DNA from: Myxococcota bacterium
Lineage (GTDB): Bacteria; Myxococcota_A; UBA9160; UBA6930
Length of the DNA: 64,000 bases
Direction: 5' to 3'
Assembly (NCBI GenBank): GCA_965223705.1
Contig: OZ245015.1
Coordinates: forward strand, 4,343,206 to 4,407,205
Positions 21,400-47,578 of this stretch are shown here, one piece after another. The translations under genes were made by a program, and so were the position numbers. How positions within the stretch are numbered: the first letter of the stretch is position 1; each line of letters begins with the position of its first letter. Below the pieces are notes generated by a model. That model did not search any database and had not been told where the DNA came from. It saw nothing but the letters and a program-made list of their open reading frames with translations.

Positions 21400-21409
21400 G
21401 GAGTCTCCT

Positions 21410-23212: not shown

Positions 23213-23227
23213 GTCGGTCCTCCGCGA

Positions 23228-25321
23228 CTACCCCTGGTCCCACGAAATCACGTAGCTTCCGGCGGCGCTCAGTTGCGCCCGGGCACCGGGAGGTAAAACA
23301 ATCGTCGTCGTCGCTTCCTCGACGATCGCCGGCCCGTCGATGACATCGCCGAGTTTGACGGAATCGCCTCTCAGGATTGCTGTAGGCCGGGTTTCATCCA
23401 GATCGAACATCGCGTCACGCACGCCTAGAGACCCTCCGACGACTTCTTGACCGTCCGCTCGGTGACTCGACTGCGGCAGATGAACCGCGAGGCGTCCCGT
23501 CCAGTTCAGGAACTCGATCGGAGAGTTGCGATCCTCGACACTGAAGATGCGGCGGTGGTTCGCATGAAACGCCTCGATCAGCTCGTCGACTTGTCGATCG
23601 GAGTCGAGCCGGTTTCCCCGGAGCGTCACGGGGATATCCCACACCTGCGCCGCGTAGTGTGCATCGACGCGATACTCGATCGAGTGATCGGTAAAACCGC
23701 GCGAGGAGAGCTGCTTCGCGAAACCCGTAAGCTCTTCCTCAATCGCCTGCAGCCCCGCGTTGACCGCGTCGCGATCGAAGTGGTCCGATCGCGTCGGCAC
23801 CGTGGTCGTCGCTTCGGTCTGAATGTCGGAGAATTGCATGCCACAGGCGGACAACACACTCGCCGTCCGCGGAATAATGACGTTGCGACACTTGAGCTCT
23901 CGCGCGATGGGCATGATCCCGAGGCCTGCAGCACCCCCGCCGGCGACGACGACCGTTTCGGCTGGATCGATCCCTTCGCTGACGGTGATGTCTTTGATCG
24001 CGTTGATCATCGTTTCGTTCGACACGGCGAAGACGGAGTAGGCCGCAGCGGAGACGCTGATTCCGAGCGGTTCGGCGATCGTCGCGAGCGCTGCTTTCGC
24101 CGCCGCTAAATCGAGTTTCATACGACCACCGAGAAAGTAGTCGGGATCGATATAGCCGAGCACCAACGCCGCGTCGGTGACCGTCGGATCTTTACCGCCC
24201 ATGCCGTAGCAAGCCGGGCCGGGGTTCGCGCCCGCGCTCTCGGGCCCCACCTTGAGGAGCCCAGCAGAGTCGAGCCAGGCGATCGAGCCGCCGCCAGCAC
24301 CGACGCTGCGAGCGTCTACGGCCGGAATGCCCAACATGTGGCCGGTGAAACGCTCGCCCAACCAGGTTTCCTGGGTGATTGTGATGTTGCCGTCTCGCAC
24401 CAGGCTGACATCAAACGTGGTGCCGCCCGTGTCGACGACGAGCACCGATTCGGCCTTGCCCTCGAGCTCCGCATAGCGCCGACCCGCCACCGGACCCATG
24501 GCCGGCCCGGAGCGAACCGTATGGATGGGTTTTGCGACGACGCTTTCGACGTCGAGACAACCGCCGATGGTCGTGCTGACCAGGATTTCGCCCGCGTAGC
24601 CTTCCGCGCGCAGATCTTCTCGCAAATCGTTCAAGTGCGACTGCATGAGCGGCTTGATCGAAGCATCGATGGCGACGGACGACGCGCGCCGGTATTCGCG
24701 CAAGATCGGATTGAGCTGATGGCTCAAGGTGAACGCCACACCCGGGAGCTCCGACGCGATCAGTTCGCCGAGGCGGATCTCGTGCGCGGGATTGGCCGTC
24801 GCCCAGAGGAGCGAGACCGCGCACGCTTCAAAGCCTCGCTCCCGGATCTCCGCCAACACGCCTCGCGCCTGCCGTTCGTCGAGCGGGGTGTAGACGTCGC
24901 CTTGTGCGTCCATTCGTTCGTCGATTTCGAACGTGTAGCGACGCGGGACATAGGGCTTCGGGAACGGCTTCGAGAAATCGTGCGGGTCGAACTTGCCGCC
25001 CTCGCGGAGGACCAGCACATCGGGAAATCCAGCCGTCGTGAGAAAGGCCGTCTTGGCGACGTTCCCGGTGACGATCGCGTTGGTTGCGCGTGTCGTTCCG
25101 TAGACGAAGAGCTCGGCGTTGGCCAGCACATCGGCGAGTGACAAGCCGAGCTCCCCTGCCGCGGTTTCAAGGGCGGCCTTCAGCCCATTGAAGATGCGAT
25201 CGCGGGTGGTTAGGGCCTTCCCGATGGTGAAGCGACCGCTCGCGTCGGCGATCACCACGTCGGTGAACGTGCCGCCCGTGTCGACGCTGATCCGCCAGCC
25301 AACGGATGATTGTTGATCCAT
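23228..25321 (-). CDS. hydantoinase/oxoprolinase family protein (HyuA-type subunit)
   Basis: 697 aa. The N-terminus ISVDTGGTFTDVV and a second VVDTGGTTFDVSL actin-like ATPase motif fit the family. Confidence 0.85.
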   Translation of the reverse strand: MDQQSSVGWRISVDTGGTFTDVVIADASGRFTIGKALTTRDRIFNGLKAALETAAGELGLSLADVLANAELFVYGTTRATNAIVTGNVAKTAFLTTAGFPDVLVLREGGKFDPHDFSKPFPKPYVPRRYTFEIDERMDAQGDVYTPLDERQARGVLAEIRERGFEACAVSLLWATANPAHEIRLGELIASELPGVAFTLSHQLNPILREYRRASSVAIDASIKPLMQSHLNDLREDLRAEGYAGEILVSTTIGGCLDVESVVAKPIHTVRSGPAMGPVAGRRYAELEGKAESVLVVDTGGTTFDVSLVRDGNITITQETWLGERFTGHMLGIPAVDARSVGAGGGSIAWLDSAGLLKVGPESAGANPGPACYGMGGKDPTVTDAALVLGYIDPDYFLGGRMKLDLAAAKAALATIAEPLGISVSAAAYSVFAVSNETMINAIKDITVSEGIDPAETVVVAGGGAAGLGIMPIARELKCRNVIIPRTASVLSACGMQFSDIQTEATTTVPTRSDHFDRDAVNAGLQAIEEELTGFAKQLSSRGFTDHSIEYRVDAHYAAQVWDIPVTLRGNRLDSDRQVDELIEAFHANHRRIFSVEDRNSPIEFLNWTGRLAVHLPQSSHRADGQEVVGGSLGVRDAMFDLDETRPTAILRGDSVKLGDVIDGPAIVEEATTTIVLPPGARAQLSAAGSYVISWDQG

Positions 25322-25367
25322 GGGCTACCTCGAGGGCCCATTACAGCACAATTTTCTGGGCCCTGAT

Positions 25368-26426
25368 CTAAGCGCCGACCTCGGGATAGTGCGTCGCCAT
25401 ATTCTCGGGGTAGCTGCGGGCGAAGTAGTTCCAGAGTTGCTCGCCGTAGACCGCGGGCCGATGGCGCGATTGCATGTCCCCGACGCCGGCCTCGTTTTCC
25501 TCTTTTCGCGCCATGAAGCCCGCTCCGGCGTGTCGCGGACTCGCCGCCACCGCTCGGGCGAACTCTTCCGAGAGCGGCAGCGGCGAAAGCGGCGTGTCGA
25601 GAGACGGCCCGTGGAAGTAGCCGGCCGAATAGCGCGTTTCCGTCGTAATCACCCGATGGGGCGTCGCGACGAAGTAATTGCCCGTCATTCCCTGCAGCAT
25701 TTCACCGAGGTTGATCACCAGCCCGTCGGGGACGGTCTGAACGGGTACCCAGCTCCCGTCGCTCGACTCGATCTGAAGCCCCGGAGTCGGACCGGGCGCG
25801 AGGATGGTGAGAAAACCCGTGTCGTGGTGCGCGTTGACGCCGGCTCCGCCGGCGGGAGTCGCCGGGTAGCGAATGAGTTTCGTAAGCGACATCGACTCGC
25901 CTTCGAAAAGATCGTTCAAATAGCCTTCGTCGAGGCCCAGCCCGAGCGAAAAGATCGCCATGAGTTCTCGCGCCAGCGCGTCGCATCGGGAGAACCAGGC
26001 CTCGACGTGCGCCTGAAAGCCCGGAAGCACGTCATCCGGCAGCCACTGATTCGGGCCGAGCAAACGGAGATACGAAGGCGTCACATCGGGCGGGCGCGCG
26101 GGATTCTCTGTCCAGAGGTCGACCTGCTCTCGGATATCGGGGCGCCCGTTCGTGTATTCGGCCCCGAGGTCTTCCCAGCCCCGAAAGTGTCGCGAGTACC
26201 GCTTGTCGATCCGCGCCTTTTGCTCTCGGGGAAGCGCGAACAAGCGCTTCATCAGATCGAAGGTCTCCGCGAGAAACTCCCGGGAAATGCCGTGATTCGT
26301 GACGATGAGAAAGCCCACGTGGTGGCAGATCTCGCGGACTTCGTCCGCGAGATTCGCCCGGTCGGCGGGAACTCCCCGCCAGCGGCTGAGATCCACCACC
26401 GGAACCTTTGCTGCGTCCTCTGCCAT
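25368..26426 (-). CDS. 2-oxoglutarate/Fe(II)-dependent oxygenase (isopenicillin-N-synthase family)
   Basis: Track ORF 25368..26558. I moved the start to the ATG at 26426 (MAEDAAKVPVVDLS). It carries the HxD...H facial triad (NAHHDTG, ATPHRV) and RYSAGYF (RxS). Confidence 0.8.
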   Translation of the reverse strand: MAEDAAKVPVVDLSRWRGVPADRANLADEVREICHHVGFLIVTNHGISREFLAETFDLMKRLFALPREQKARIDKRYSRHFRGWEDLGAEYTNGRPDIREQVDLWTENPARPPDVTPSYLRLLGPNQWLPDDVLPGFQAHVEAWFSRCDALARELMAIFSLGLGLDEGYLNDLFEGESMSLTKLIRYPATPAGGAGVNAHHDTGFLTILAPGPTPGLQIESSDGSWVPVQTVPDGLVINLGEMLQGMTGNYFVATPHRVITTETRYSAGYFHGPSLDTPLSPLPLSEEFARAVAASPRHAGAGFMARKEENEAGVGDMQSRHRPAVYGEQLWNYFARSYPENMATHYPEVGA

Positions 26427-26475: not shown

Positions 26476-27630
26476 TTAGCGCTGCCGTTGTGCTTCCTCC
26501 GCACCGCGCAGCGATATCCGTACCCGCTCGGGGTTGATATCGACGATGGACAGGTCATTGGGCTTCTTCACATCGTCCACGGACACCGAGAAGGTCCTTC
26601 GACCGAGTCTCGCGAGGTAGGCGTCGATCTCGACGGAGACGCCGTCCTGTTCCGTGAGCAGAAAATCGCGCCGCTGCCCCCGCAGCTTCACTTCGAGCGT
26701 GCCGGGCTGCACCGACTCGAGGACGAGATCGTCGGGGAGATTGTTGATGCGAACCGAGGCGGTGACCGTCGCTTCGTGAAGATCTGAGCCGAACACAAAG
26801 AGAACCCACAACGCGACCGATCCGGCGATCGCGAACAGCGCGTCTCTCCGGCCGTACCACCAGGGCGCGGCCTCGTCGGACTCATCGTCGTCGGCCCCGC
26901 GAAGCTCCAGTGCGAGATCTTCGGGGCGGGACAACACGCGCAGCTGACCACCGCGTGCCACCGATACCGTCCCGCGTTCCTCAGAAACCGCGATGCAGAT
27001 CGCGTCGCAACGTTCGGAGAGCCCCAGAGCGGCTGCGTGTCGTGTGCCGCCCGCGCCGAGCTCTGCGTGATTCCCGGAAAGCGGCAGGTGGATTGCGAAG
27101 CGCTCGACGACGTCTCCGCGAATCAGCACCGCGCCGTCGTGCCCCGGCGAGCTCGCATCGAAGATCGACAGCAGCAAGGGCTCGCTGAGCCGGCCCGCAA
27201 GACGCACCCCGCCTTCGAGGTAGCGGTCGAGCGTCTCCTCCCCGGGAAGAACGATCAGGGCTCCCGTACGCGTGGACGCAAGGCGCGCGACCGTCCTCAC
27301 GAGTGAATCGTGAGCCTCGTCGTCGACGGGCGCCTGAGTCTGCCCGGGGCGGAACCTGCCGAGTTGTTCAAACACCCGCCGCAAGTCGTCTTGAAAGACC
27401 ACGACGAGTATCAAGACGAGCACCGCGAAAAACGCCCGGAGAATCGAAGCCGTGACTTCGAGCTCCAACCTCGTCGCGAAGAAGTAGATCGCTCCGAGGA
27501 CCGCGAGCCCGACGACAGCCGCCCGGGCGTGCGTCGCCCGCATGTAGCGGATCAGTAGCCAGCCGAGCGCCGCAACGATCGCGATGTCGAGGACGTCGAG
27601 CCAACCAGGTATGGGGAACCAAACAGGCAT
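26476..27630 (-). CDS. cdaA: diadenylate cyclase CdaA fused to a C-terminal TM segment plus YbbR-like (CdaR-type) domain
   Basis: Track ORF 26476..28149. I moved the start to the ATG at 27630 (MPVWFPIPGW). It has three N-terminal TM helices and the DAC motifs SPGHDGAV and GTRHAAA (the RHR position reads RHA). A TM segment LFAIAGSVALWVLFVF then precedes one YbbR-like repeat (VTASVRINNLPDDLVLESVQPGTLEVKLRG...IVDINPERVRISL). Confidence 0.8.
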   Translation of the reverse strand: MPVWFPIPGWLDVLDIAIVAALGWLLIRYMRATHARAAVVGLAVLGAIYFFATRLELEVTASILRAFFAVLVLILVVVFQDDLRRVFEQLGRFRPGQTQAPVDDEAHDSLVRTVARLASTRTGALIVLPGEETLDRYLEGGVRLAGRLSEPLLLSIFDASSPGHDGAVLIRGDVVERFAIHLPLSGNHAELGAGGTRHAAALGLSERCDAICIAVSEERGTVSVARGGQLRVLSRPEDLALELRGADDDESDEAAPWWYGRRDALFAIAGSVALWVLFVFGSDLHEATVTASVRINNLPDDLVLESVQPGTLEVKLRGQRRDFLLTEQDGVSVEIDAYLARLGRRTFSVSVDDVKKPNDLSIVDINPERVRISLRGAEEAQRQR

Positions 27631-27653
27631 AGAATCAATCGCCGGATTCGGTG

Positions 27654-28958
27654 CTAGATCTTCGACATCAGCAGAGTCGCTATACCGAGGAAACTGAAGA
27701 AGCCCACCACGTCGGTCACGGTCGTCAAGATGATAGACGAAGATTGGGCCGGGTCCTGGCGCAGTGCAGTGAGAACCATCGGGATCACCGCACCGGACAA
27801 GCCCGCCAACGTCATCGACAACACCATCGAGAGCCCGATGACGAGACCGAGGCCCCATGATTGGCTCCAGAAATAGACGGCTACCGAGGTGGTCAACGCG
27901 ACGGCCACCCCGTTTCCCGCGCCGGCGAGCATTTCCTTCGCGGAGACTTTGAGCCAGTGCCGTGTGCGGACCTCCCGCAAGGCCAATCCCCGCATCGTCA
28001 CGGCAAGCGCCTGTGCACCCGTATTTCCAGATTGGCCGGCCACGACGGGAAGGAGGACTGCAAGCGCTGTCACAGTCGCGATGGTCTCTTCGAAGAGACC
28101 GACCACCGTCGCGGCGAGAAAGGCGGTGAGTAAGTTGACTTGCAGCCAAGGCAAGCGTTTCCGAATCGCGAACAGCGGCGAAGAGAGGGCACGCTCTTGG
28201 TCGCTGGCGCCGACCATGGTGATCGCACTGGCCAGTGCCCGCTCTTGGGCTGCCTGTACGAGCTCTTGTTGGCGCAGCACCCCCATGAGACGACCGTCGA
28301 TGTCGACGACCGGAAGGCTGCCGACGCGCTGCGCTTCGAAGGTTTGAACGATCTCATCGCGGGAAGCTACGACGGGCACGCTGACCGGCGTGCCTCTCAC
28401 CAGACTGTCGAGCCTCACGCCATCCTCGGCCAGTACGATCGATTCCAGGGGAACGGATCCCTGAAGCACACCGTCGGCGTTGACAACGAAGACATCTTGA
28501 TCGCGACGGCTTCGAAAAGTCTTCAACCGTTTCACCACATCCTGTGTGGAGGCATCCGGTCGGAAGCTCGTCGCCCGCGGATCCATCAGGGAGCCGGCGG
28601 TTTCGGGCGGGTACTCGAGTAGCGCACGCAGCTCCTCGGCCAGATCGTGATCGAGGACCTCGAGGCAGCGTTCCAGCTCATCGGGGTTGAGTCGCGCGAG
28701 CATCGCGGCCGCTCGGTTCTGGCTCAACGCCGAAAGAACCTCGCGCCGACCGGTTTCCGAGAGGCTTGCGACAATCCGGGAGGCGCGGTCCGGAGTCAGT
28801 CGCCCGATCACAGGCAGCATGACCGCCGCGCCGAGGGTCTCGAGAAAGGCGGCAGATTCGGCATCGTCGCCCGTTTCGATCAGCCGGGCCGTGGCGTCCG
28901 GCTCGGCGATCGCGAGGAGCGAGGCCAACGCGCGATCCGCGTTCTCCGAATCAGGCAC
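27654..28958 (-). CDS. mgtE: magnesium transporter MgtE
   Basis: Track ORF 27654..29228. It has an MgtE_N region, a CBS pair and a five-helix MgtE membrane domain (LLPVVAGQSGNTGAQALAVTMRGLAL, ILTTVTDVVGFFSFLG). I propose the GTG at 28958 as the start; it is preceded by GGAGAAGGGGA. The ATG of MLPVIG is an alternative start. Confidence 0.85.
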   Translation of the reverse strand: MPDSENADRALASLLAIAEPDATARLIETGDDAESAAFLETLGAAVMLPVIGRLTPDRASRIVASLSETGRREVLSALSQNRAAAMLARLNPDELERCLEVLDHDLAEELRALLEYPPETAGSLMDPRATSFRPDASTQDVVKRLKTFRSRRDQDVFVVNADGVLQGSVPLESIVLAEDGVRLDSLVRGTPVSVPVVASRDEIVQTFEAQRVGSLPVVDIDGRLMGVLRQQELVQAAQERALASAITMVGASDQERALSSPLFAIRKRLPWLQVNLLTAFLAATVVGLFEETIATVTALAVLLPVVAGQSGNTGAQALAVTMRGLALREVRTRHWLKVSAKEMLAGAGNGVAVALTTSVAVYFWSQSWGLGLVIGLSMVLSMTLAGLSGAVIPMVLTALRQDPAQSSSIILTTVTDVVGFFSFLGIATLLMSKI

Positions 28959-29781
28959 TTCGGTCCCCTTCTCCAGCCGAGCCGGCAAATGCGTCGAGCA
29001 ACCCGCGAGCTCCTGCGGAAATGATCTCGCCGATGGCCGCGCCCGCGTCGGCGTCCTTGCCGCGCCGTGCGAGGAGCGACGCTTCGAGGTCGCGAAGCGT
29101 TCGGTAGCGAATCGCCCCCAAGTATTCTCCGCCCACGTCGACGACCGGCAGAGCGTGCACGTCCCTCCAACCGGGATGCGCCACGACGGCCGCCCGGTCG
29201 GCGGTTGCAGCGATTCGGTGCGGAGCATTCACCATGAGCTCGGCGATTGGCGTGTCCGGATCGGCGAGAAACAGCTCCCGCAAGTTGAGCGCACCGACCA
29301 GGCGCTGCTCTTGATCGACGATGTAGAGGTTGTACCGAGTGGCCTTGGGGTCTTCTCGAACTCTTGCGAGGGCCTCTCCCGCCGTCAAGCCGTGTGCCAA
29401 CGCGAGAACATTGGGATCGAGAAGCGCTCCCGCGGTTCCCTCGCGAAATCGCAAGAGCCCGCGGACGTCTCGTTCGGTCTTGCGCGGGAGAAGGCGCAGC
29501 AGCTCGTCGCGTCGCCCGTCGGACATGCGACGAAGCAAGCGTGCGCAAAGCTCGATGGGAAGCTGCTTGAGCAAGCCCGCCACTTGCTCCGCCCGGAGTT
29601 CCGCAAGTGCCGCCGTCGCGTGATGAGGAGACAGTCGGCGCAAAATACCGATCGCACTCTCGGGCTCGAGGCGAGCCAGGATTTCGGTGGTCTCGCCGGG
29701 AGAGAGCCGTTCGAGTGCGAGGGTGGCACGCTCCGGGAAGGTGTTGAGCAATTGATCCGCCAGGCGTCGCGTGAGCGTCAT
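28951..29781 (-). CDS. soluble MgtE_N + CBS-pair protein (MgtE cytoplasmic-domain paralogue, no membrane domain)
   Basis: Track ORF 28951..29841. I moved the start to the ATG at 29781 (MTLTRRLADQLL). The helical repeat region LSPGETTEILARLEPESAIGILRRLSPHHATAALAEL is followed by a CBS pair (NLYIVDQEQRLVGALNLRELF and ALPVVDVGGEYLGAIRYRTL). The protein ends without any TM helix. Confidence 0.7.
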   Translation of the reverse strand: MTLTRRLADQLLNTFPERATLALERLSPGETTEILARLEPESAIGILRRLSPHHATAALAELRAEQVAGLLKQLPIELCARLLRRMSDGRRDELLRLLPRKTERDVRGLLRFREGTAGALLDPNVLALAHGLTAGEALARVREDPKATRYNLYIVDQEQRLVGALNLRELFLADPDTPIAELMVNAPHRIAATADRAAVVAHPGWRDVHALPVVDVGGEYLGAIRYRTLRDLEASLLARRGKDADAGAAIGEIISAGARGLLDAFAGSAGEGDRSA

Positions 29782-29792
29782 GACCCCTCTCC

Positions 29793-30623
29793 TCAGCGCA
29801 AAACGACCCGCTCGAGAAGGTGAGCGTTCGGCACACTCCACACCTCGTCGTCGCTGCGCACCAAGGTATCGACGGCCCCGACCCTCTCGACCAGCCCGCG
29901 GCGGCCATCGATCTCGACGGCCGTGTTTTCGGGAAACGATTGCTTCATGAAATGACCCGCGAGGATATGCGTAATGAGTGGCCTCGCACCGAGAGCGAAC
30001 GCGAGTCCGACGGCAAGGCCCGCTGCCCCCACCATGACCGTGAGCGGAAGAACGAAGACCTCGACCGCAATGCCGAGCTGCTCGGCGGCGATCGCGAGCA
30101 TCAATCCGACCACCGCGATCTGCGCCATGAACCCGAGTCGCGGTGCGGAGAGCAAACCCGCGGCCGCGGCGCCCGAGCTCACCAAAGTCGCGACGAATCG
30201 CCCGAGGACGAGCCCGCCCAGGCCGATCAGCGCCGCGCCGATCACGTTGGGGATGAAGGCGATCAGCCGATCGATCGTGGTGGTCACCGCCTTGAGGCCG
30301 AGCGTTTCAACCGCCGACAACAAGAATGTAAGCATCACGAGCCAGAACAGCAGACGAGCGACGATCTCCGAGAAACTGAGGTTCAGCCCGGCGCGATCCA
30401 GAAGATCGGCGATCTTGAGACGCGCCGCGGCGCGGTCGAGCCCGAGGGCGCGCAGGCCGCGACCCGCCACCATCTCGAGTCCGCTCGAAACGAGCCACCC
30501 CAACGCGAAGATCAGCACGGCCCCGACGAGGTTGGGAAGAAAGGCCGCCACGTTTCCGCCGAGCTCAGAAAACACATGGACAAGAACCTCGCGCAGCGCG
30601 TCGAGGTTGAACAGTTCGCTCAT
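29793..30623 (-). CDS. mechanosensitive-channel-like membrane protein (conserved TM-helix repeats plus MscS-type beta domain)
   Basis: 276 aa. The TM-helix module repeats (NLVGAVLIFALGWLVSSGLE and NVIGAALIGLGGLVLGRFVA). The C-terminal AVEIDGRRGLVERVGAVDTLVRSDDEVWSVPNAHLL resembles the MscS beta domain. Confidence 0.55.
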   Translation of the reverse strand: MSELFNLDALREVLVHVFSELGGNVAAFLPNLVGAVLIFALGWLVSSGLEMVAGRGLRALGLDRAAARLKIADLLDRAGLNLSFSEIVARLLFWLVMLTFLLSAVETLGLKAVTTTIDRLIAFIPNVIGAALIGLGGLVLGRFVATLVSSGAAAAGLLSAPRLGFMAQIAVVGLMLAIAAEQLGIAVEVFVLPLTVMVGAAGLAVGLAFALGARPLITHILAGHFMKQSFPENTAVEIDGRRGLVERVGAVDTLVRSDDEVWSVPNAHLLERVVLR

Positions 30624-30667
30624 CGTCTCTCTCCTTGTTTCAGGAAACTTTGGGGCTCGGTGTCGGC

Positions 30668-31690
30668 TCAGGTGAGCTCTGTCTCATCGGTCAACTCCTC
30701 GTGAAAGCTCTCGACCGAATCCGCGACCCGCTCCGGCACGTCGAAGAACGCGACGTGAAAGAGAGCGTCCCCCTCGTTGACGAGGGGAAGCTCTGTCCGA
30801 CCGATCACGACACCCGCGTGCGTCGCCTTGACGATGACTTCTTCCGCGCCCAACGGGTCCGCGATGACTCCGAGCTGATCCCCGGGTTCGACTGCGGCGC
30901 CCAACTTCAAGCGCTCGCGCAGGATCCCGCTGTCCGGCGCGCGAACCCACTTACTGGCCTGCGCGACGAACGGCCGCCCGACGCCCTTGCTCCGCGGCGG
31001 CTTGACCATGCCCAGGGCGCCCATCACGCGCAGGGTGCCGTAGGCGCCCGCTTGGATGGGGGCTTCGTCAAAGCGGAGCGCTTCTCCCCCTTCATAGAGG
31101 AGCATGGGAATGCCCCGGTCGACCACCGCTTGTCGCAACGAGCTGTCGCGGAGGGTCGCGTTCACGACGACGGGAACTCCAAAAGTCCTGGCCAGACGCT
31201 CCGTCTCGGCATCGTCCAAACTGGCTCGAATTTGCGGCAAGTTCGAGCGGTGCACGGCCGCCGTGTGGAGATCGATCCCATGCGTCGATCCTTCCACCAC
31301 TTCGGAGAGAAACAAGTGCGCGAGTCGAGACGCGAGCGATCCCTGAGGCGATCCCGGAAACGAGCGGTTCAGATCTCTCCGATCGGGCAAATAGCGGGTC
31401 AATCCGACGAAGCCGTAGAGGTTCACGATCGGAACCGCGATGAGCGTACCGCGCAAGGCACGGAGGCTCCGATGGGCGAGGACGCGACGAATGATCTCGA
31501 CGCCGGCGATTTCGTCACCGTGCACCGCGGCGCACACGAACAAACGGGGACCCGGCTCCCGACCGCACACCACTTCTACCGGGAGCGCGACTTGGTTCCC
31601 GCTCACCCGTTTCGCGAGGGGTATTTGAATCCGTTTCCGCTCGCCGGGCCCGATTCGCTCGCCGGCGAGAAGAACCTCGGGATCAGGCAC
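30668..31690 (-). CDS. succinylglutamate desuccinylase/aspartoacylase (AstE/AspA, M14-like) family deacylase
   Basis: 340 aa with the zinc-site block FVCAAVHGDEIAG. The length and N-terminal pattern (GERKRIQIPLAK) match the members of this family usually found next to rimK. GTG start at 31690. Confidence 0.75.
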   Translation of the reverse strand: MPDPEVLLAGERIGPGERKRIQIPLAKRVSGNQVALPVEVVCGREPGPRLFVCAAVHGDEIAGVEIIRRVLAHRSLRALRGTLIAVPIVNLYGFVGLTRYLPDRRDLNRSFPGSPQGSLASRLAHLFLSEVVEGSTHGIDLHTAAVHRSNLPQIRASLDDAETERLARTFGVPVVVNATLRDSSLRQAVVDRGIPMLLYEGGEALRFDEAPIQAGAYGTLRVMGALGMVKPPRSKGVGRPFVAQASKWVRAPDSGILRERLKLGAAVEPGDQLGVIADPLGAEEVIVKATHAGVVIGRTELPLVNEGDALFHVAFFDVPERVADSVESFHEELTDETELT

Positions 31691-32147
31691 GTCGTGCCCT
31701 TCCCCTCTTTGCTTTCTTTTTCGGAGCCTGAACCATCCGGCGGCTCGGGTCGATCAGGAAGGGCCCCGACAGCGCGGTCCGTCCCAGGAGCATGCGGTGG
31801 ATCATCTTCCCGCGATTGACCAGGCTGAGATCGACGTCGCGCTCGACGGGCCCGAGTCTGATCCGCGTTCGAACGAAATAACGAGTCTCGGTTTCTCCGT
31901 TGCTCGAACGGACGCGTGAACGCCTCAGAACGCGTGCGGTCACGTGCACACGTCGATCTCGTCGCTCTCGATGGAGGACAACGTCGAATCGAATCCGCCC
32001 GCGCGGAAGCTCGACCACGTTTTCGACGTGGAGGGCGCTTGAGCGGGCGCCGGTATCCACCTTTGCGCGGAGCTTCTTGATGTTCCAATCGGGCAGGTCG
32101 ACGTACTCGGTCCACCCAATGAGGACGGGCTCGTCGTCCGATCTCAT
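31683..32147 (-). CDS. retropepsin-like aspartic endopeptidase (COG4067, formerly 'ATP-dependent zinc protease'; RimB-like)
   Basis: Track ORF 31683..32387. I moved the start to the ATG at 32147, which overlaps the rimK stop (ATGA). Signature: IGWTEYVDLPDWNIKKLRAKVDTGARSSALHV with a D-T-G motif. Confidence 0.75.
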   Translation of the reverse strand: MRSDDEPVLIGWTEYVDLPDWNIKKLRAKVDTGARSSALHVENVVELPRGRIRFDVVLHRERRDRRVHVTARVLRRSRVRSSNGETETRYFVRTRIRLGPVERDVDLSLVNRGKMIHRMLLGRTALSGPFLIDPSRRMVQAPKKKAKRGRARRA

Positions 32148-33382
32148 TCGCTGGGCACCGGATCCGACGACTCGCGAGCGTTCGGCGCCTTTCGCTTGCG
32201 TACCTTCCGACGGGGCTTGGGCGCGAGCCCGCGTAGAGTGAGCATCTTCCCGAAGCAGAACAGGGTGTCCCCGGCCAGGATCTCGCGGTCGTTTCGCGGG
32301 TTCGGAATCGAGACACTGCCTCGCTGGATCGTCAGGATCACCACGTCGAGACCGCGCAGGCCGGATCCTTTGACGGTTTTCCCGCACAGGTCCGAGCGCG
32401 GATCCACGGGGATCTCCATAACGCCGTACCCGCTCTGTAGTGTGAGGCGCTGGCGAATGTCGATGTCGGGGAACAGGACTTCTTGCTCGATCAGGGAAAT
32501 GATCTCACCGGCCACGTCGATTCCCGTCGCCGTTTCGATCCCCTCCAGACCGGGGGACGAGTTGACTTCCATCAACATCGGACCGTCGTTGCCTTCGAGG
32601 AGATCGACGCCCGCAACGCGGAGCCCCATGACCTGCGCTGCGTTGACCGCCACGCGCTCGTATTCCTCGTCCAGGGTGACGACCTCGGCAGAACCACCGC
32701 GGTGGATGTTGCTGCGGAACTCATCGCCTTGCGCCTGGCGGCGCATCGCCGCGACGACACGAGAGCCCACGACGAAGGCGCGGATATCCCGACCTTTGCT
32801 CTCCTTGACGAATCGCTGCAGCAAGACGCTCATCTTCGCGGGCCCCGAGAGGGTTTCGATGATGGCCTCTGCCACTTTCGTCGAATCCGCGAGGATCACC
32901 CCGACACCTTGGGTGCCCTCGAGAAGCTTGATCACCACGGGCGGCCCGCCCATACGCTCGATGCCCGGGAGGATCTCCGAGGTGTGCCGAACGAAGAGTG
33001 TCGTAGGAAGGCCGATCTTGTGGCGACTCAAGGCCTGGAGTGCGCGAAGCTTGTCGCGAGAAACCGTGATCGCGTGAGAGGGGTTCACGCAGAAGACGCC
33101 CATTTGTTCGAACTGGCGGACGACGGCGGTCCCGAACGCCGTGATCGAAGCGCCGATTCGAGGGATCACCGCGTCGTATTGCGAGAGCCTCTTGTTCTTG
33201 AAGTAGAGGTGCGGGCGACTGGTCTCCACTTCGATCGTGAAGGAGAGCGGGTTGAGTACCTTCGCCTCGTGCCCCCGTTGGGTCGCCGCCTCTTTGAGGC
33301 GACGCGTGCTGTAGAGACGCGGCCCACGTGAAAGGATCGCGATCTTGAGAGAGTCGGCCTCTTCTCTCGCAGCCATAACCAC
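32144..33382 (-). CDS. rimK: RimK-type ATP-grasp alpha-L-glutamate ligase with C-terminal RCK_C (TrkA_C) domain and basic tail
   Basis: Residues 1-300 align along their whole length with E. coli RimK as I recall it (KIAILSR, AVIPRIG, VVIKLLEGTQGVGV, DIRAFVVG, FRSNIHRGG, MEVNSSPGLEGIE). Residues ~312-386 (GYGVMEIPVDPRSDLCGKTVKGSGLRGLDVVILTIQRGSVSIPNPRNDREILAGDTLFCFGK) match the TrkA_C/RCK_C pattern. The tail is KPRRKVRKRKAP. Confidence 0.9.
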   Translation of the reverse strand: MVMAAREEADSLKIAILSRGPRLYSTRRLKEAATQRGHEAKVLNPLSFTIEVETSRPHLYFKNKRLSQYDAVIPRIGASITAFGTAVVRQFEQMGVFCVNPSHAITVSRDKLRALQALSRHKIGLPTTLFVRHTSEILPGIERMGGPPVVIKLLEGTQGVGVILADSTKVAEAIIETLSGPAKMSVLLQRFVKESKGRDIRAFVVGSRVVAAMRRQAQGDEFRSNIHRGGSAEVVTLDEEYERVAVNAAQVMGLRVAGVDLLEGNDGPMLMEVNSSPGLEGIETATGIDVAGEIISLIEQEVLFPDIDIRQRLTLQSGYGVMEIPVDPRSDLCGKTVKGSGLRGLDVVILTIQRGSVSIPNPRNDREILAGDTLFCFGKMLTLRGLAPKPRRKVRKRKAPNARESSDPVPSE

Positions 33383-33526: not shown

Positions 33527-34591
33527 ATGGACAGAGAAACGCTCACGTGGGCCGGAATCGCGCTGTGTCTCGTTCAGTCCGGAATGTTTTCGGGACTGAA
33601 TCTGGCGCTTCTGGGTCTCAGCCGTCTTCAGTTGCAGGTCGAGGCAGAGTCGGGAGATCCTGCGGCGTCCCGAGTCCTGGCTCTCCGTCAGGATTCGAAC
33701 TTCCTACTCACGACGGTGCTCTGGGGCAACGTGAGTGTGAACTGTCTACTGACCCTCCTGTCGGACTCGGTCCTCTTCGGCGTCGCTGCCTTCGCGTTTT
33801 CGACCTTCGGCATTACGATCGTCGGAGAGATTCTTCCCCAGGCGTATTTCTCGCGAAACGCCATGCGCGTCGGTGCGGCGCTGACGCCCTTCGTCCGCTT
33901 CTATCAGTGGGTTCTCTTTCCAGTCGCAAAACCCACCGCTCTCCTGCTCGACGCGTGGCTCGGCGAGGAGGAAATCTCCTACTTTCGCGAGCGCGAACTC
34001 CGCGAGGTGATCCGTCAACATATGTTGGCGGAGGACGCCGACCTCGAAAGCCACGAGGGTCTGGGTGCCCTCAACTTCCTCGTGATGGATGACCTCCCGA
34101 TCGGTCAAGAGGGAGAGGCCGTCGATCCGGCTAGCGTCATCTCGCTCCCTGTCGCCGTGGACTTGCCGGTCTTCCCTTCGATCCGTCGGGACGCGGAAGA
34201 CCCCTTCTTGAAGAGGGTCGAACAAAGCGGCCACAAATGGATCGTCATCACGGATACCGAAGAACAGCCCCGCCTCGTACTGGACGCGGATGCTTTTCTG
34301 CGCGAGGCCCTGTTCGGTACGGGTGAGCTCGATCCGTACTCGTTTTGCCATCGACCCATCGTCGTCGACAACGCGCGCGTCCCCCTCGGTGTCGCGATCC
34401 GACGACTCCATGTCGAGCCGGAGCACAAAGAAGACGACGTTATCGACCAGGATCTGATTCTCGTCTGGGCCGATACGCGTCGAATCGTCACGGGAGCGGA
34501 TTTACTCGGGCGCCTCTTACGCGGGATCGTCCGCAAGCGTCGAGCGTCGCAGGCACAACGGGCACCCGTGCTGGCCGCCCCGTCCGAGTAG
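33527..34591 (+). CDS. CNNM/DUF21 transmembrane-domain protein (CorB/CNNM-type Mg2+/Co2+ transport family)
   Basis: Track ORF 33488..34591. The start is probably MDRETLTW (33527) or METRK (33512). The DUF21 pattern is SGMFSGLNLALLGLSRLQLQV...GEILPQAYFSRNA...FPVAKPTALLLD. The C-terminal region looks like a degenerate CBS pair and there is no CorC_HlyC domain. Confidence 0.7.
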   Translation: MDRETLTWAGIALCLVQSGMFSGLNLALLGLSRLQLQVEAESGDPAASRVLALRQDSNFLLTTVLWGNVSVNCLLTLLSDSVLFGVAAFAFSTFGITIVGEILPQAYFSRNAMRVGAALTPFVRFYQWVLFPVAKPTALLLDAWLGEEEISYFRERELREVIRQHMLAEDADLESHEGLGALNFLVMDDLPIGQEGEAVDPASVISLPVAVDLPVFPSIRRDAEDPFLKRVEQSGHKWIVITDTEEQPRLVLDADAFLREALFGTGELDPYSFCHRPIVVDNARVPLGVAIRRLHVEPEHKEDDVIDQDLILVWADTRRIVTGADLLGRLLRGIVRKRRASQAQRAPVLAAPSE

Positions 34592-34604: not shown

Positions 34605-35480
34605 TCAGAGGTACATCCCGACGCCTTCCCCCGGCTTCGTCGGAGGCGGCGCCTCGGCGCTACGCCCGGCGAGCATCTCTTCGTGGGTCACGCCGCCGAA
34701 CATCTGCTTCAAGCGATCGTCCCATGTGTCGGCTGTCGAAGCGACCATCTCGATCGCGAAGCGGAGCTCTTCTTCCCTGAATTCAGAGCCGAGAATGCTC
34801 TCGTCAAACCAGATCGAGCGATTCTCGGGATCGAGTGCAAAACGGCCGAACATCAGTCCGAAGTTGAGTCTCGCGAGGAAGAGACCGAGCTCGGGCGTGA
34901 CGACGACACCGACATTGGTAATCGCGAAGACGCGAATCACCACGCGCCCATTCGGCATGGCGCGGGGAGCGACCATGAGGTGGACCCCGGCCATGGGAAC
35001 GACGTAGTCGCCATCGTTGTCCTTGTCCGGTCGTCGCCCGAGGATCTCCGCAACGACGCTTTCGATCCGGACTCGCGCGAGGGCGAGCTTCTTCTTCGCT
35101 TCGTGCTCGAGTTTGCGGCTGCCGTGTGCGATGTCGAGTTTCAATTCGGGCTTTTCGCCAAAGACCTCCACCAGGAGTTGTGTCAGCTGATCCACCGCGG
35201 CTTCGGCCTCGGGCGCGGCTTTCGTCCAGGGGTTGGCCGCGTTGGCCGGATCCTCGGAACTGAATCCGCGCTCCCTCAGAGCACGCCGCACGTCCGCGTC
35301 GAGCTCGGGCACAGATCGAGGGCGCCCCGGCACCGAGACCTCGAGCCCGCCGTCCTCCCGGCGGTTGATCTCCGCGACATGAAGCGGACGCCCCGACGGG
35401 ACCACGGCGATGAAATCAAGCGGTTCGAGCGCCTCGACCTCGGCAATCAGAAAGGCTGTCGCGACGGAAGGATCGGCCAT
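34605..35480 (-). CDS. YbjN-like (type III secretion chaperone-like) domain protein
   Basis: 291 aa. The C-terminal half DGDYVVPMAGVHLMVAPRAMPNGRVVIRVFAITNVG...LARLNFGLMFGRFALDPENRSIWFDESI fits the YbjN/sensory-transduction-regulator fold pattern. Confidence 0.65.
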   Translation of the reverse strand: MADPSVATAFLIAEVEALEPLDFIAVVPSGRPLHVAEINRREDGGLEVSVPGRPRSVPELDADVRRALRERGFSSEDPANAANPWTKAAPEAEAAVDQLTQLLVEVFGEKPELKLDIAHGSRKLEHEAKKKLALARVRIESVVAEILGRRPDKDNDGDYVVPMAGVHLMVAPRAMPNGRVVIRVFAITNVGVVVTPELGLFLARLNFGLMFGRFALDPENRSIWFDESILGSEFREEELRFAIEMVASTADTWDDRLKQMFGGVTHEEMLAGRSAEAPPPTKPGEGVGMYL

Positions 35481-43048: not shown

Positions 43049-43161
43049 CCGCCGGCGAGTCAAATTGTCTCAACGTGAGGCGCGGCGGCGCAAGTCCGAT
43101 CCGTGAAACGACCTCGAGCGGTCGCCGTGTTTTGGCACTTGTCTTGCGTTTTCTGCGGCGC

Positions 43162-44686: not shown

Positions 44687-44763
44687 TGGCGCCCCGGGCA
44701 GGACTCGAACCTGCGACCCGCTGCTTAGAAGGCAGCCGCTCTATCCAGCTGAGCTACCGGGGC
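44687..44763 (-). tRNA. tRNA-Arg (anticodon TCT)
   Basis: I folded the cloverleaf by hand: acceptor GCCCCGG/CCGGGGC, D stem GCTC/GAGC, anticodon stem GCTGC/GCAGC, loop CTTCTAA, T stem GCAGG/CCTGC with TTCGAGT. CCA is encoded. The ends may be off by 1 nt. Confidence 0.9.
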
Positions 44764-44932: not shown

Positions 44933-45010
44933 GGTGGGTGTAGCTCAGTTGGTTAGAGCGCCAGATTGTGGTTCTGGAAGTCGGGGGTTCGAATCCCCTC
45001 ATCCACCCCA
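44933..45010 (+). tRNA. tRNA-His (anticodon GTG) with encoded G-1
   Basis: G-1 plus acceptor GTGGGTG/CATCCAC, D stem GCTC/GAGC, anticodon stem CCAGA/TCTGG, loop TTGTGGT, T arm GGGGG TTCGAAT CCCCT, discriminator C, CCA encoded. Confidence 0.9.
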
Positions 45011-47501: not shown

Positions 47502-47578
47502 GCGCCGGTAGCTCAGCTGGATAGAGCATCAGGCTTCGAACCTGAGGGTCGGGGGTTCGAATCCCTCCCGGCGTGCCA
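47502..47578 (+). tRNA. tRNA-Arg (anticodon TCG)
   Basis: Acceptor GCGCCGG/CCGGCGT (one G-T pair), D stem GCTC/GAGC, anticodon stem TCAGG/CCTGA, loop CTTCGAA, T arm GGGGG TTCGAAT CCCTC. CCA is encoded. Confidence 0.85.

What the first reader, a model, noticed from the sequence alone, without database searches (positions are those of the whole stretch)
26476..33382. One transcription unit joins a c-di-AMP cyclase to RCK_C- and CBS-domain proteins, Mg2+ and mechanosensitive channels, and a RimK glutamate-ligase/peptidase set
Seen in sequence: seven minus-strand genes have almost no intergenic space. They are rimK+RCK_C (33382-32144), a retropepsin-like protease (32147-31683, ATGA overlap) and an AstE-like deacylase (31690-30668, 8-nt overlap). 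After a 44-nt gap comes an MscS-like channel (30623-29793), and after an 11-nt gap a soluble MgtE_N+CBS protein (29781-28951). These are followed by mgtE (28958-27654, 8-nt overlap) and, after a 23-nt gap, the cdaA-ybbR fusion (27630-26476). A CNNM-type Mg2+/Co2+ transporter gene is divergently adjacent (33527-34591). Established knowledge: CdaA-type DAC enzymes synthesise c-di-AMP, the second messenger that governs K+, osmolyte and turgor homeostasis. Known c-di-AMP receptor modules include RCK_C/TrkA_C domains (KtrA/KtrC, CpaA) and CBS pairs (OpuCA, CbpB/DarB class). RimK polymerises L-glutamate, and glutamate is the main K+/Mg2+ counter-anion. Inference: the cyclase is co-expressed with a ready-made set of candidate receptors (one RCK_C, two or three CBS pairs) and with a mechanosensitive channel. 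This suggests a c-di-AMP-controlled module that couples cation flux to synthesis and trimming of glutamate polymers, acting as a counter-ion or osmolyte buffer. I know of no described system that links RimK-type ligases to c-di-AMP.
Basis: partly seen in the sequence, partly recalled or inferred. Interest (0 to 1): 0.75.

Follow-up and report, generated by a model that had tools for sequence, protein, structure and literature searches.

The report
c-di-AMP cyclase in magnesium-transport/RimK gene cluster
In an uncultivated Myxococcota-like bacterium, the enzyme that makes the signalling molecule c-di-AMP is encoded next to magnesium channels, a small stretch-activated channel and a glutamate-polymerising RimK system, and relatives repeat this grouping in many gene orders, which points to a real link between c-di-AMP, magnesium balance and polyglutamate that has not been tested by experiment.

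Summary
Seven tightly packed minus-strand genes (33382..26476) encode RimK fused to an RCK_C domain, a RimB-like retropepsin, an AstE-like deacylase, a truncated MscS homologue, a soluble MgtE_N+CBS protein, MgtE, and a CdaA fused to a YbbR-like domain. A CNNM gene lies divergently upstream.

The exact seven-gene string was found nowhere else, but its parts recur around cdaA. Of 80 species-representative loci of this CdaA clade, 25 carry a Mg2+-transporter homologue (MgtE, CorA or CNNM-CBS-CorC) within 10 kb, and 15 of these lie within 500 nt. In the closest clade the figure is 16 of 19. In two relatives rimK-rimB-astE-cdaA form one overlapping operon, and at least five more keep the triad near cdaA.

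The Mg2+ link extends known biology, because B. subtilis MgtE binds c-di-AMP. The RimK link is new as gene context. However, none of 120 RimK-RCK_C homologues has the canonical c-di-AMP signature, and the domain is closer in sequence to MthK and TM1088 than to KtrA. The cyclase also has RHA in place of the RHR motif. A single transcript and c-di-AMP control of RimK both remain unproven.

Verdict: a new variant of known systems, of moderate to high interest.

The parts
32144..33382 (-). rimK fused to a C-terminal RCK_C (TrkA_C) domain and a Lys/Arg-rich tail; the likely true start is the ATG at 33376
   Evidence: Pfam Rimk_N, RimK and TrkA_C. The NCBIfam equivalog for S6--L-glutamate ligase scores 337.2 against a cutoff of 331. 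All 120 best homologues carry PF02080. The RCK_C fold is confirmed. The c-di-AMP signature is absent.
31683..32147 (-). RimB-like retropepsin aspartic peptidase (DTG motif in KVDTGARS), with an ATGA overlap with rimK
   Evidence: PF05618 scores 85.8 bits. The best NCBIfam match is RimB at 99 bits, below the equivalog cutoff of 200. The gene is conserved next to RimK in many loci.
30668..31690 (-). AstE/aspartoacylase-family zinc deacylase or carboxypeptidase-like enzyme (HGDE, DLNR and DLH motifs visible)
   Evidence: PF24827 scores 122 bits. NCBIfam gives only weak matches. It is conserved as the third member of the RimK/RimB triad.
29793..30623 (-). Truncated MscS-family channel homologue, 276 aa, with no C-terminal alpha/beta domain
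   Evidence: Only PF05552 is detected, in two stretches. Most of the family's best 120 homologues are exactly 276 aa. The AF2 model has pLDDT 82.8. The top Foldseek hits in the PDB are all MscS, YnaI, MSL1 or MscK.
28951..29781 (-). Soluble paralogue of the MgtE cytoplasmic sensor (MgtE_N plus a CBS pair, no membrane domain)
   Evidence: Pfam. It is 24% identical to the MgtE N-terminal part over 225 aa, E 5e-14. It is conserved directly upstream of mgtE in L012, L013, L057, L037, L050, L081 and L086.
27654..28958 (-). MgtE Mg2+ channel (MgtE_N + CBS + MgtE)
   Evidence: Pfam. NCBIfam mgtE scores 222 bits against a cutoff of 232.75.
26476..27630 (-). CdaA-type diadenylate cyclase with a fourth transmembrane helix and an extracytoplasmic YbbR/CdaR-like domain; DGA motif intact, RHR motif replaced by RHA
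   Evidence: Pfam CdaA_N, DAC and YbbR. Alignment to solved CdaA structures. Family alignment A1. The profile of the C-terminal domain hits Lmo2119 at E 0.021 and a YbbR family protein at E 0.037.
33527..34591 (+). Divergent CNNM (DUF21) membrane protein with no detectable CBS or CorC domains
   Evidence: PF01595 scores 119.8 bits. NCBIfam matches are weak. Homologues at 70-74% identity lie near cdaA in L010 and L087.

Best explanation
The region is a local, unusually compact version of a conserved cation-homeostasis gene neighbourhood, mainly concerned with Mg2+, that surrounds the CdaA-YbbR diadenylate cyclase in one lineage of uncultivated Myxococcota-like bacteria. It is built from three modules that occur separately or in other orders in relatives:
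(i) rimK(RCK_C)-rimB-astE-like, a system that adds and removes alpha-linked glutamates;
(ii) a truncated MscS-like channel, a soluble MgtE_N/CBS paralogue and the MgtE channel;
(iii) cdaA fused to a CdaR-like YbbR domain.

The most likely working model has four steps.
1. The membrane cyclase reports envelope or osmotic state through its extracytoplasmic YbbR domain and makes c-di-AMP (inferred).
2. c-di-AMP acts on the CBS-bearing Mg2+ transport proteins encoded beside it: MgtE, the soluble MgtE_N/CBS protein and, in relatives, CNNM-CBS-CorC. This is inferred from B. subtilis MgtE binding c-di-AMP and from the gene linkage shown here.
3. The RimK module adjusts ribosomal protein S6 glutamylation and/or free poly-alpha-glutamate under the same ionic conditions (inferred).
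4. Whether RimK is controlled by c-di-AMP through its RCK_C domain, or by another ligand such as a cation, is unresolved. The sequence evidence leans against a KtrA-type c-di-AMP site.
For: Gene content and spacing are shown.

Linkage of cdaA to Mg2+ transporters:
- 25 of 80 species-representative CdaA loci have an MgtE, CorA or CNNM homologue within 10 kb.
- 15 of these lie within 500 nt, spread over 11 of 44 CdaA clusters at 70% identity.
- 16 of 19 loci with CdaA at least 57% identical to the window's have such a gene.
- CNNM-CBS-CorC lies directly upstream on the same strand in L003, L007, L009, L027, L028 and L036.
- mgtE_N/CBS-mgtE-cdaA are colinear in L012, L013 and L057.

Linkage of cdaA to the RimK triad:
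- rimK-rimB-astE-cdaA overlap or abut in L084 and L088.
- The triad lies within 10 kb of cdaA in L001, L005, L028, L070, L081 and L087.
- An Rlo-like set (ATP-grasp, 7TM-transglutaminase, AstE-like) lies near cdaA in L086.

Literature:
- c-di-AMP binds B. subtilis MgtE, and c-di-AMP and Mg2+ levels move together during osmoadaptation (PMC8844918, PMC10636490).
- RimK and RimB make and trim poly-alpha-glutamate on RpsF and as free polymer (PMC11957791).
- The related Rlo peptidases are needed for hypo-osmotic tolerance (PMC11957051).
Against: - The exact seven-gene order was found in none of 168 related loci.
- 55 of 80 CdaA loci show no Mg2+ gene within 10 kb, and only 4 of 80 show the RimK triad.
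- Seen from the RimK side, only 1 of 80 metagenomic RimK-RCK_C loci had cdaA nearby, although many of those contigs are short.
- The cyclase has RHA instead of RHR, invariant across the 31-sequence alignment. An RHR-to-AAA mutant of a DisA-type enzyme is inactive (PMC3328451), so activity is not certain.
- S. aureus MgtE does not bind c-di-AMP (PMC11686323), so CBS-domain binding cannot be assumed.
- The background frequency of Mg2+ genes was estimated, not measured in the same genomes.
Confidence: 0.55

Rival explanations
1. c-di-AMP made by CdaA binds the RCK_C tail of RimK, as well as the CBS proteins. It switches synthesis and trimming of poly-glutamate, which serves as a K+/Mg2+ counter-ion or osmolyte buffer, and all seven genes are expressed from one transcript.
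For: - rimK-rimB-astE-cdaA form overlapping operons in L084 and L088.
- Every cdaA-linked RimK checked by Pfam carries TrkA_C.
- RCK_C domains are established c-di-AMP receptors (PMC7132281, PMC8517857).
- The modelled domain superposes on c-di-AMP-bound KhtT and BusR RCK_C about as well as on MthK, with TM 0.62-0.69.
- c-di-AMP is tied to glutamate and counter-ion pools in Firmicutes (PMC7857571, PMC8092236).
Against: - The signature (I/L)(I/L)X2DX1RX5N(I/L)(I/L), and a relaxed form of it, are absent from all 120 RimK-RCK_C homologues.
- A profile search ranks TM1088B (1.4e-5) and MthK (2e-4) far above KtrA 4XTT (0.11) and KtrC (0.62).
- The RimK-RCK_C triad is widespread without cdaA nearby.
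- Relatives place a divergent sigma-54 activator gene between astE and cdaA.
- There is no evidence here for free poly-glutamate acting as an osmolyte.
Confidence: 0.2
2. RimK acts as a ribosomal S6 glutamate ligase whose RCK_C domain senses a cation or another small ligand directly. It sits among Mg2+ transport genes because ribosome function depends on Mg2+. c-di-AMP regulates only the transporters, and cdaA and rimK share a neighbourhood without direct signalling between them.
For: - The RimK part passes the NCBIfam equivalog cutoff for S6--L-glutamate ligase.
- The nearest solved relatives of the RCK_C domain are the cation-gated MthK and the TM1088 TrkA ring.
- In L084, L087, L088 and L005 the triad is flanked by CorA, CNNM or MgtE genes.
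- The link between Mg2+ and translation is described in PMC8844918.
Against: - rpsF and its C-terminus were not examined.
- Overlapping rimK-rimB-astE-cdaA operons argue for more than shared location.
- No ligand can be assigned from sequence.
Confidence: 0.15
3. The grouping is a chance juxtaposition. Three unrelated modules were packed co-directionally in a compact genome, with no shared function or regulation.
For: - The co-directional, tightly spaced string continues into unrelated metabolic genes (2OG oxygenase, hydantoinase A and B, aminotransferase) that are not conserved near cdaA.
- The exact order is unique to this genome.
- Most CdaA loci lack these neighbours.
Against: - The same gene families recur next to cdaA in at least eight different arrangements and on both strands.
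- 15 of 25 Mg2+ transporter hits lie within 500 nt of cdaA rather than being spread over the 10-kb flanks.
Confidence: 0.08

Closest known systems
c-di-AMP control of K+/osmolyte/Mg2+ transport in Firmicutes (B. subtilis CdaA with KtrA/C, CpaA, KhtT, OpuCA, MgtE)
   Same: A CdaA-type membrane cyclase. MgtE, with its CBS pair, is a reported c-di-AMP-binding protein, and c-di-AMP tracks Mg2+ re-import after osmotic shock (PMC8844918, PMC10636490).
   Different: In Firmicutes the link is biochemical, not genomic: cdaA sits in a cdaA-cdaR-glmM operon. Here the CdaR-like YbbR domain is fused to CdaA, no glmM is adjacent, and the neighbours are MgtE, CorA and CNNM genes. The RHR motif reads RHA. No K+ transporter is present in the cluster.
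Pseudomonas RimABK system
   Same: A RimK alpha-L-glutamate ligase is co-encoded and translationally coupled with a RimB-type retropepsin that removes glutamates. There is a precedent for cyclic-dinucleotide control of RimK (PMC4741518, PMC7343187, PMC11957791).
   Different: There is no RimA (EAL) gene in the cluster. RimK carries an extra RCK_C domain and a basic tail. A third enzyme, AstE-like, is conserved. The adjacent cyclase makes c-di-AMP, not c-di-GMP.
Rlo system of P. aeruginosa (RloA retropepsin, RloB 7TM-transglutaminase, RloC ATP-grasp)
   Same: A retropepsin acting on polyglutamate is paired with an ATP-grasp enzyme, and the phenotype is osmotic-stress tolerance (PMC11957051). 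An Rlo-like set lies near cdaA in relative L086.
   Different: The window encodes the cytosolic Rim type, not the secreted Rlo type, and it has no transglutaminase gene.
MscS small-conductance mechanosensitive channel
   Same: The pore-helix and beta-domain region match at fold level, and the protein has the PF05552 helices.
   Different: The protein has 276 aa, ends after the beta domain and lacks the C-terminal alpha/beta vestibule domain. It has no PF00924 hit. Channel activity is untested.

Membership tests
CdaA-type diadenylate cyclase | N-terminal three-helix CdaA_N membrane domain followed by a DAC domain | tested here: met
   PF19293 scores 36.5 bits and PF02457 scores 113.6 bits. The protein aligns with full-length CdaA 9G69 over residues 11-230. 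NCBIfam CdaA scores 169.9 bits, just under the equivalog cutoff of 188.8.
CdaA-type diadenylate cyclase | DGA active-site motif | tested here: met
   H164-D165-G166-A167 are invariant in 31 sequences and align to HDGA of solved CdaA.
CdaA-type diadenylate cyclase | RHR active-site motif | tested here: inconclusive
   R197 and H198 are present, but the third residue is Ala199, invariant across the alignment. The papers read here report only the triple RHR-to-AAA mutant as inactive (PMC3328451). The effect of the single change is unknown.
CdaR/YbbR regulator domain (fused) | YbbR-like beta domain outside the membrane | tested here: inconclusive
   PF07949 scores 24.8 bits against a cutoff of 22.3, covering only 31 residues. 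The profile of the C-terminal domain hits Lmo2119 (the cdaR gene product of L. monocytogenes, identification from my own knowledge) at E 0.021 and a YbbR family protein (2L3U) at E 0.037. A hydrophobic helix (ALFAIAGSVALWVLFVFG) precedes the domain.
RimK (ribosomal protein S6--L-glutamate ligase) | RimK pre-ATP-grasp and ATP-grasp domains at equivalog level | tested here: met
   PF18030 scores 134.5 bits and PF08443 scores 193.6 bits. NF007764 scores 337.2 bits against a cutoff of 331.
RimK (ribosomal protein S6--L-glutamate ligase) | An S6 substrate with an acceptor C-terminal Glu-Glu | not tested
   rpsF was not found or sought in the window.
RimABK module | RimB retropepsin co-encoded with RimK, with a catalytic Asp | tested here: met
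   PF05618 scores 85.8 bits. RimB is the best NCBIfam match, at 99 bits, below the equivalog cutoff. A DTG motif is present in the sequence. The gene has an ATGA overlap with rimK.
RimABK module | RimA EAL phosphodiesterase in the operon and c-di-GMP binding by RimK | tested here: not met
   There is no EAL gene in the cluster. The only EAL protein in the window is a PAS-GGDEF-EAL protein about 17 kb away, at 7726-9852. c-di-GMP binding cannot be tested here.
c-di-AMP-binding RCK_C domains (KtrA, KtrC, CpaA, CpeA type) | Signature (I/L)(I/L)X2DX1RX5N(I/L)(I/L) (PMC7132281) | tested here: not met
   0 of 120 RimK-RCK_C homologues match the strict or the relaxed pattern. KtrA 4XTT is reached only at E 0.11, against 1.4e-5 for TM1088B. 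BusR shows that the pocket can deviate from the signature (PMC8517857), so binding is not excluded.
c-di-AMP-binding RCK_C domains (KtrA, KtrC, CpaA, CpeA type) | RCK_C fold | tested here: met
   PF02080 scores 33.9 bits. The model (pLDDT 69.6) matches PH0236, MthK, BusR and KhtT RCK_C with TM 0.62-0.69.
MgtE Mg2+ channel | MgtE_N + CBS pair + MgtE membrane domain | tested here: met
   All three Pfam domains are present. TIGR00400 scores 222 bits against a cutoff of 232.75.
MgtE Mg2+ channel | c-di-AMP binding by the CBS pair | not testable with these tools
   B. subtilis MgtE is reported to bind c-di-AMP, but S. aureus MgtE is not (PMC8844918, PMC11686323). No sequence signature is known.
MscS family | Pore helix TM3 plus beta domain (PF00924) | tested here: inconclusive
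   There is no PF00924 hit and no PDB sequence hit. All 28 Foldseek PDB matches at E<=0.001 are MscS-family channels, with about 22% identity over about 160 columns but TM-scores of only 0.26-0.33.
MscS family | C-terminal alpha/beta vestibule domain | tested here: not met
   The protein ends about 40 residues after the pore helix. The model shows only four short strands and one helix there.

The most novel reading that the evidence does not exclude
In this lineage c-di-AMP directly controls a RimK-RCK_C/RimB/AstE glutamylation cycle together with Mg2+ channels. Ribosomal S6 glutamylation or a poly-alpha-glutamate pool would then be tuned to Mg2+ and osmotic state by the same messenger. This would be a new class of c-di-AMP effector, an ATP-grasp ligase, and a non-canonical RCK_C binding mode.
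Probability: 0.2. Interest if true: 0.8.

Novelty: new variant of a known kind. Interest (0 to 1): 0.6.

Why it matters
How c-di-AMP relates to Mg2+ is an acknowledged open point. The effect on B. subtilis MgtE is listed as '?' in a recent review (PMC10636490), and regulation of MpfA/CNNM exporters is described as still to be determined (PMC8844918).

A lineage in which the cyclase gene is linked to MgtE, CorA and CNNM-CBS-CorC genes gives independent, non-Firmicute evidence that this coupling is under selection. It also offers a defined set of proteins to test.

The recurrent linkage to a RimK-RCK_C/RimB/AstE triad would, if functional, connect the essential osmotic messenger to ribosome modification or polyglutamate metabolism. 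It would also parallel the c-di-GMP control of RimK in Pseudomonas.

Tried and rejected
- An exact look-up of the window's CdaA found no contig on record.
- The first genome-contig scan, with the single protein, found nothing. The alignment-based scan worked.
- Sigma-70 promoter and terminator scans and a sigma-54 promoter pattern were at chance level, so operon structure could not be addressed.
- An Rfam scan found no c-di-AMP (ydaO) or Mg2+ (M-box) riboswitch in the window, only three tRNAs.
- A phmmer search of the MscS-like protein against the PDB gave nothing. Structure prediction was needed instead.
- I considered that the RimK fusion might glutamylate its own C-terminus, because several homologues end in Glu. 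Only 33 of 120 do, so I dropped the idea.
- I modelled the RCK_C tail hoping the nearest structures would discriminate between ligands. They do not: cation-gated MthK and c-di-AMP-bound KhtT and BusR match about equally well.
- The 25-26% 'RimK-like' hits near cdaA in L037 turned out to be two GshB-like ATP-grasp proteins plus a MATCAP-family peptidase, not RimK.

Full report
**1. Observation**

- an ATGA overlap between rimK and the protease gene;
- an 8-nt overlap into the AstE-like gene;
- a 44-nt gap with an AAGGAG ribosome-binding site before the MscS-like gene;
- an 11-nt gap before the MgtE_N/CBS gene;
- an 8-nt overlap into mgtE;
- a 23-nt gap before cdaA.

Pfam confirms every domain call:
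- Rimk_N + RimK + TrkA_C;
- PF05618 retropepsin-like peptidase;
- AstE_AspA_cat;
- MS_channel_1st_1;
- MgtE_N + CBS;
- MgtE_N + CBS + MgtE;
- CdaA_N + DAC + a marginal YbbR hit;
- CNNM for the divergent gene.

NCBIfam places the ligase part of the first protein above the equivalog cutoff for ribosomal protein S6--L-glutamate ligase (337.2 against 331). It names RimB as the best match for the peptidase.

**2. Corrections to the observation**

- rimK probably starts at the ATG at 33376. The database copy is 410 aa.
- The 'MscS-like' protein has only the PF05552 helices and no sequence match to any solved structure. An AlphaFold model built on 32 homologues has pLDDT 82.8. All 28 of its Foldseek PDB matches at E<=0.001 are MscS-family channels: MscS, YnaI, MSL1 and MscK. 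The protein stops soon after the beta domain, so it is a truncated MscS homologue. Most of the best 120 homologues are exactly 276 aa.
- The window's CNNM protein shows no CBS or CorC domain.
- The YbbR assignment is weak but consistent. A profile of the C-terminal domain finds Lmo2119 and a 'YbbR family protein' as its two best solved relatives, at E 0.02-0.04. Lmo2119 is the L. monocytogenes cdaR product (identification from my own knowledge).
- The co-directional string continues past cdaA into genes for a 2OG-Fe(II) oxygenase, hydantoinase A and B and an aminotransferase, with equally short gaps. These genes are never found near cdaA in relatives. Close spacing by itself therefore says little in this genome.
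- Promoter, terminator, sigma-54 and riboswitch scans were uninformative.

**3. The cyclase**

The protein aligns with solved CdaA enzymes, including a full-length membrane CdaA. The DGA motif and the GTRH and VSEE.G blocks are intact.

The RHR motif is R-H-A, and this is invariant in the 31 aligned homologues. The papers I read establish DGA and RHR as the active-site motifs (PMC8573169) and show that an RHR-to-AAA DisA-type mutant is dead (PMC3328451). They do not test the single change. Strong conservation of the rest of the site argues for a working enzyme, but this is inference.

**4. Is the arrangement conserved?**

The window's own genome has no close relative in the collections. The best non-self identities are CdaA 65%, RimK 86% and MscS-like 73%.

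I fetched 80 species-representative loci of this CdaA-YbbR clade with 10-kb flanks. I also fetched eight loci from the large protein collection, with gene calls and Pfam annotation. I searched all of them with the window's proteins and with CorA, CNNM-CBS-CorC, large MscS and other neighbours taken from annotated loci.

The exact seven-gene order occurs nowhere else. The parts recur in several arrangements:
- (a) rimK-rimB-astE-cdaA, contiguous and overlapping, in L084 (4-, 11- and 1-nt overlaps) and in L088. A large MscS with CorA (L084), or CorA, MgtE and a Na/Ca exchanger (L088), lie divergently upstream.
- (b) CorA-CNNM-rimK-rimB-astE, then a divergent sigma-54-type activator gene, then cdaA, in L087 and L005.
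- (c) mgtE and mgtE_N/CBS on one strand, then the MscS-like gene, a small ORF and cdaA on the other, followed by a convergent astE-rimB-rimK, in L081.
- (d) the MscS-like gene divergent from mgtE_N/CBS-mgtE-cdaA, in L012, L013 and L057.
- (e) CNNM-CBS-CorC directly upstream of cdaA on the same strand, in L003, L007, L009, L027, L028 and L036.
- (f) rimK-astE, rimB, cdaA, mgtE and a Na/Ca exchanger, in L070.
- (g) mgtC, then mgtE-mgtE_N/CBS-MscS-like, CNNM-CBS-CorC, the activator, cdaA, a second mgtE and an Rlo-like ATP-grasp/7TM-transglutaminase/AstE-like set, in L086.

**5. Numbers**

- 25 of the 80 representative loci carry a Mg2+-transporter homologue within 10 kb of cdaA.
- In 15 of these the nearest one lies within 500 nt, and in 14 within 250 nt.
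- The 15 adjacent cases fall in 11 of 44 CdaA clusters at 70% identity.
- Among loci whose CdaA is at least 57% identical to the window's, 16 of 19 have such a gene.
- The RimK-RCK_C triad lies within 10 kb in 4 of 80 representative loci.
- For a handful of Mg2+ transporter genes in a genome of about 5 Mb, a 20-kb window should contain one in only a few percent of cases, and an immediate neighbour should be one in well under 1%. This background is my estimate, not a measurement.
- The concentration of hits right next to cdaA, rather than spread across the flanks, is an internal argument against chance.
- Seen from the other side, 80 metagenomic loci anchored on RimK-RCK_C show that the RimK/RimB/AstE triad is widespread in several gene orders. 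cdaA appears near it in only one locus, and MgtE in four. Many of those contigs are short.
- The cdaA link is therefore a feature of one clade, not of RimK-RCK_C systems in general.

**6. The proposed receptors**

MgtE: c-di-AMP binding to B. subtilis MgtE is published, with the effect still unknown (PMC10636490, PMC8844918). S. aureus MgtE does not bind (PMC11686323). Regulation of CNNM/MpfA exporters is an explicitly open question (PMC8844918).

Soluble MgtE_N/CBS protein: it is a paralogue of the MgtE cytoplasmic sensor, 24% identical over 225 residues. It is conserved directly upstream of mgtE in at least seven other loci, which suggests a regulatory partner of the channel.

RimK's RCK_C domain:
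- The fusion is a large and very conserved family. All 120 best hits carry PF02080, at 75-86% identity.
- None of the 120 carries the published c-di-AMP signature (I/L)(I/L)X2DX1RX5N(I/L)(I/L) or a relaxed version of it (signature from PMC7132281).
- A family profile finds TM1088B (E 1.4e-5) and MthK (2e-4) well ahead of KtrA 4XTT (0.11) and KtrC (0.62).
- A model of the domain (pLDDT 69.6) confirms the fold but matches MthK, PH0236, BusR and KhtT about equally well.
- BusR shows that the binding pocket can depart from the signature (PMC8517857).
- Binding is therefore not excluded, but nothing in the sequence supports it. The only evidence is gene context.

**7. What is known about the RimK part**

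- RimK with the RimB retropepsin is an established pair. RimK adds, and RimB removes, alpha-linked glutamates on RpsF, and together they produce free poly-alpha-L-glutamate.
- In plant-associated pseudomonads an EAL protein (RimA) and c-di-GMP regulate RimK (PMC4741518, PMC7343187, PMC11957791, PMC10092738).
- The related Rlo system (retropepsin, 7TM-transglutaminase, ATP-grasp) is required for hypo-osmotic tolerance in P. aeruginosa, and RloA cleaves polyglutamate (PMC11957051).
- No paper in the searched library connects RimK with c-di-AMP.
- c-di-AMP is linked to glutamate and counter-ion pools in Firmicutes (PMC7857571, PMC8092236).

**8. Interpretation**

The best-supported reading is that the window shows a compact local version of a conserved gene neighbourhood for Mg2+ and ion homeostasis, centred on the CdaA-YbbR cyclase and assembled from three separable modules.

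- Shown: gene content, spacing, and recurrent linkage in many arrangements.
- Inferred: that the cyclase is active; that c-di-AMP acts on the adjacent CBS-bearing Mg2+ transport proteins; and that the RimK module responds to the same physiological state.
- Unresolved: whether RimK is a direct c-di-AMP effector, whether polyglutamate serves as a counter-ion buffer, and whether all seven genes share one mRNA.

**9. Verdict**

It is strong for a c-di-AMP/Mg2+ genomic link and suggestive for RimK. It is unsupported for the RCK_C binding mechanism.
- It is a new variant of known systems rather than a new kind.
- It is worth follow-up because it turns an open question, how c-di-AMP relates to Mg2+ homeostasis and whether it reaches the translation apparatus, into a short list of binding and activity assays.

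Noticed in passing
window 28951-29781 (-) with 27654-28958 (-); also L012, L013, L057, L037, L050, L081, L086: A free-standing paralogue of the MgtE cytoplasmic sensor (MgtE_N plus CBS pair, no membrane domain) is conserved immediately upstream of a full-length mgtE, often with the 276-aa MscS-like gene next to it. This looks like a conserved three-gene module whose function I have not seen described.
   Followed up: partly
window 29793-30623 (-): The MscS-like protein belongs to a family in which most of the best 120 homologues are exactly 276 aa. The family keeps the pore helix and part of the beta domain of MscS but lacks the whole C-terminal vestibule domain.
   Followed up: partly
window 26476-27630 (-), residues 197-199: All 31 aligned homologues of this CdaA-YbbR clade have R-H-A where other diadenylate cyclases have the RHR active-site motif.
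   Followed up: partly
L005 8363-9760, L086 8328-9749, L087 8407-9813: A sigma-54-type enhancer-binding protein gene (with a receiver domain in L086) lies divergently just upstream of cdaA in three relatives. This suggests that cdaA has its own regulated promoter there. No such gene and no sigma-54 promoter motif is present in the window.
   Followed up: partly
L086 12904-18309; L037 4476-8707: Other pairs of an amino-acid ligase and a peptidase sit in the same neighbourhood in relatives. L086 has an Rlo-like ATP-grasp, a 7TM-transglutaminase and an AstE-like gene. L037 has two GshB-like ATP-grasp genes and a MATCAP-family peptidase next to MscS-like/mgtE_N-CBS/mgtE.
   Followed up: partly
window 32144-32240 (-), C-terminus of RimK: After the RCK_C domain the RimK fusion has a Lys/Arg-rich tail. 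In the 94 family members where the tail could be delimited it averages about 23 residues with about 8 K/R. It could bind RNA or polyglutamate. One third of homologues end in Glu.
   Followed up: partly
window 20032-26426 (-): Directly downstream of cdaA on the same strand, with gaps of about 50, 46, 15 and 10 nt, lie genes for a 2OG-Fe(II) oxygenase, hydantoinase/oxoprolinase A and B and a class-III aminotransferase. They are not conserved near cdaA in relatives.
   Followed up: partly
window 7726-9852 (+): A PAS-GGDEF-EAL protein (c-di-GMP turnover) is encoded about 17 kb from the cluster. No linkage to rimK is evident.
   Followed up: no
window 43075-44544 (+); L081 4278-5651: A sodium:dicarboxylate symporter family (SDF) transporter gene lies about 10 kb from the cluster in the window. 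An SDF gene sits inside the equivalent cluster in L081. This family includes glutamate/aspartate carriers (my own knowledge).
   Followed up: no
window 35932-41051 (+) and 34605-35480 (-): TamA-like (Omp85/POTRA) and TamB genes, and a YbjN/T3SS-chaperone-like gene, flank the CNNM gene. The YbjN-like gene also occurs near cdaA in L004.
   Followed up: no
window 44690-44763 (-), 44934-45007 (+), 47502-47575 (+): Three tRNA genes are the only Rfam matches in the window.
   Followed up: no
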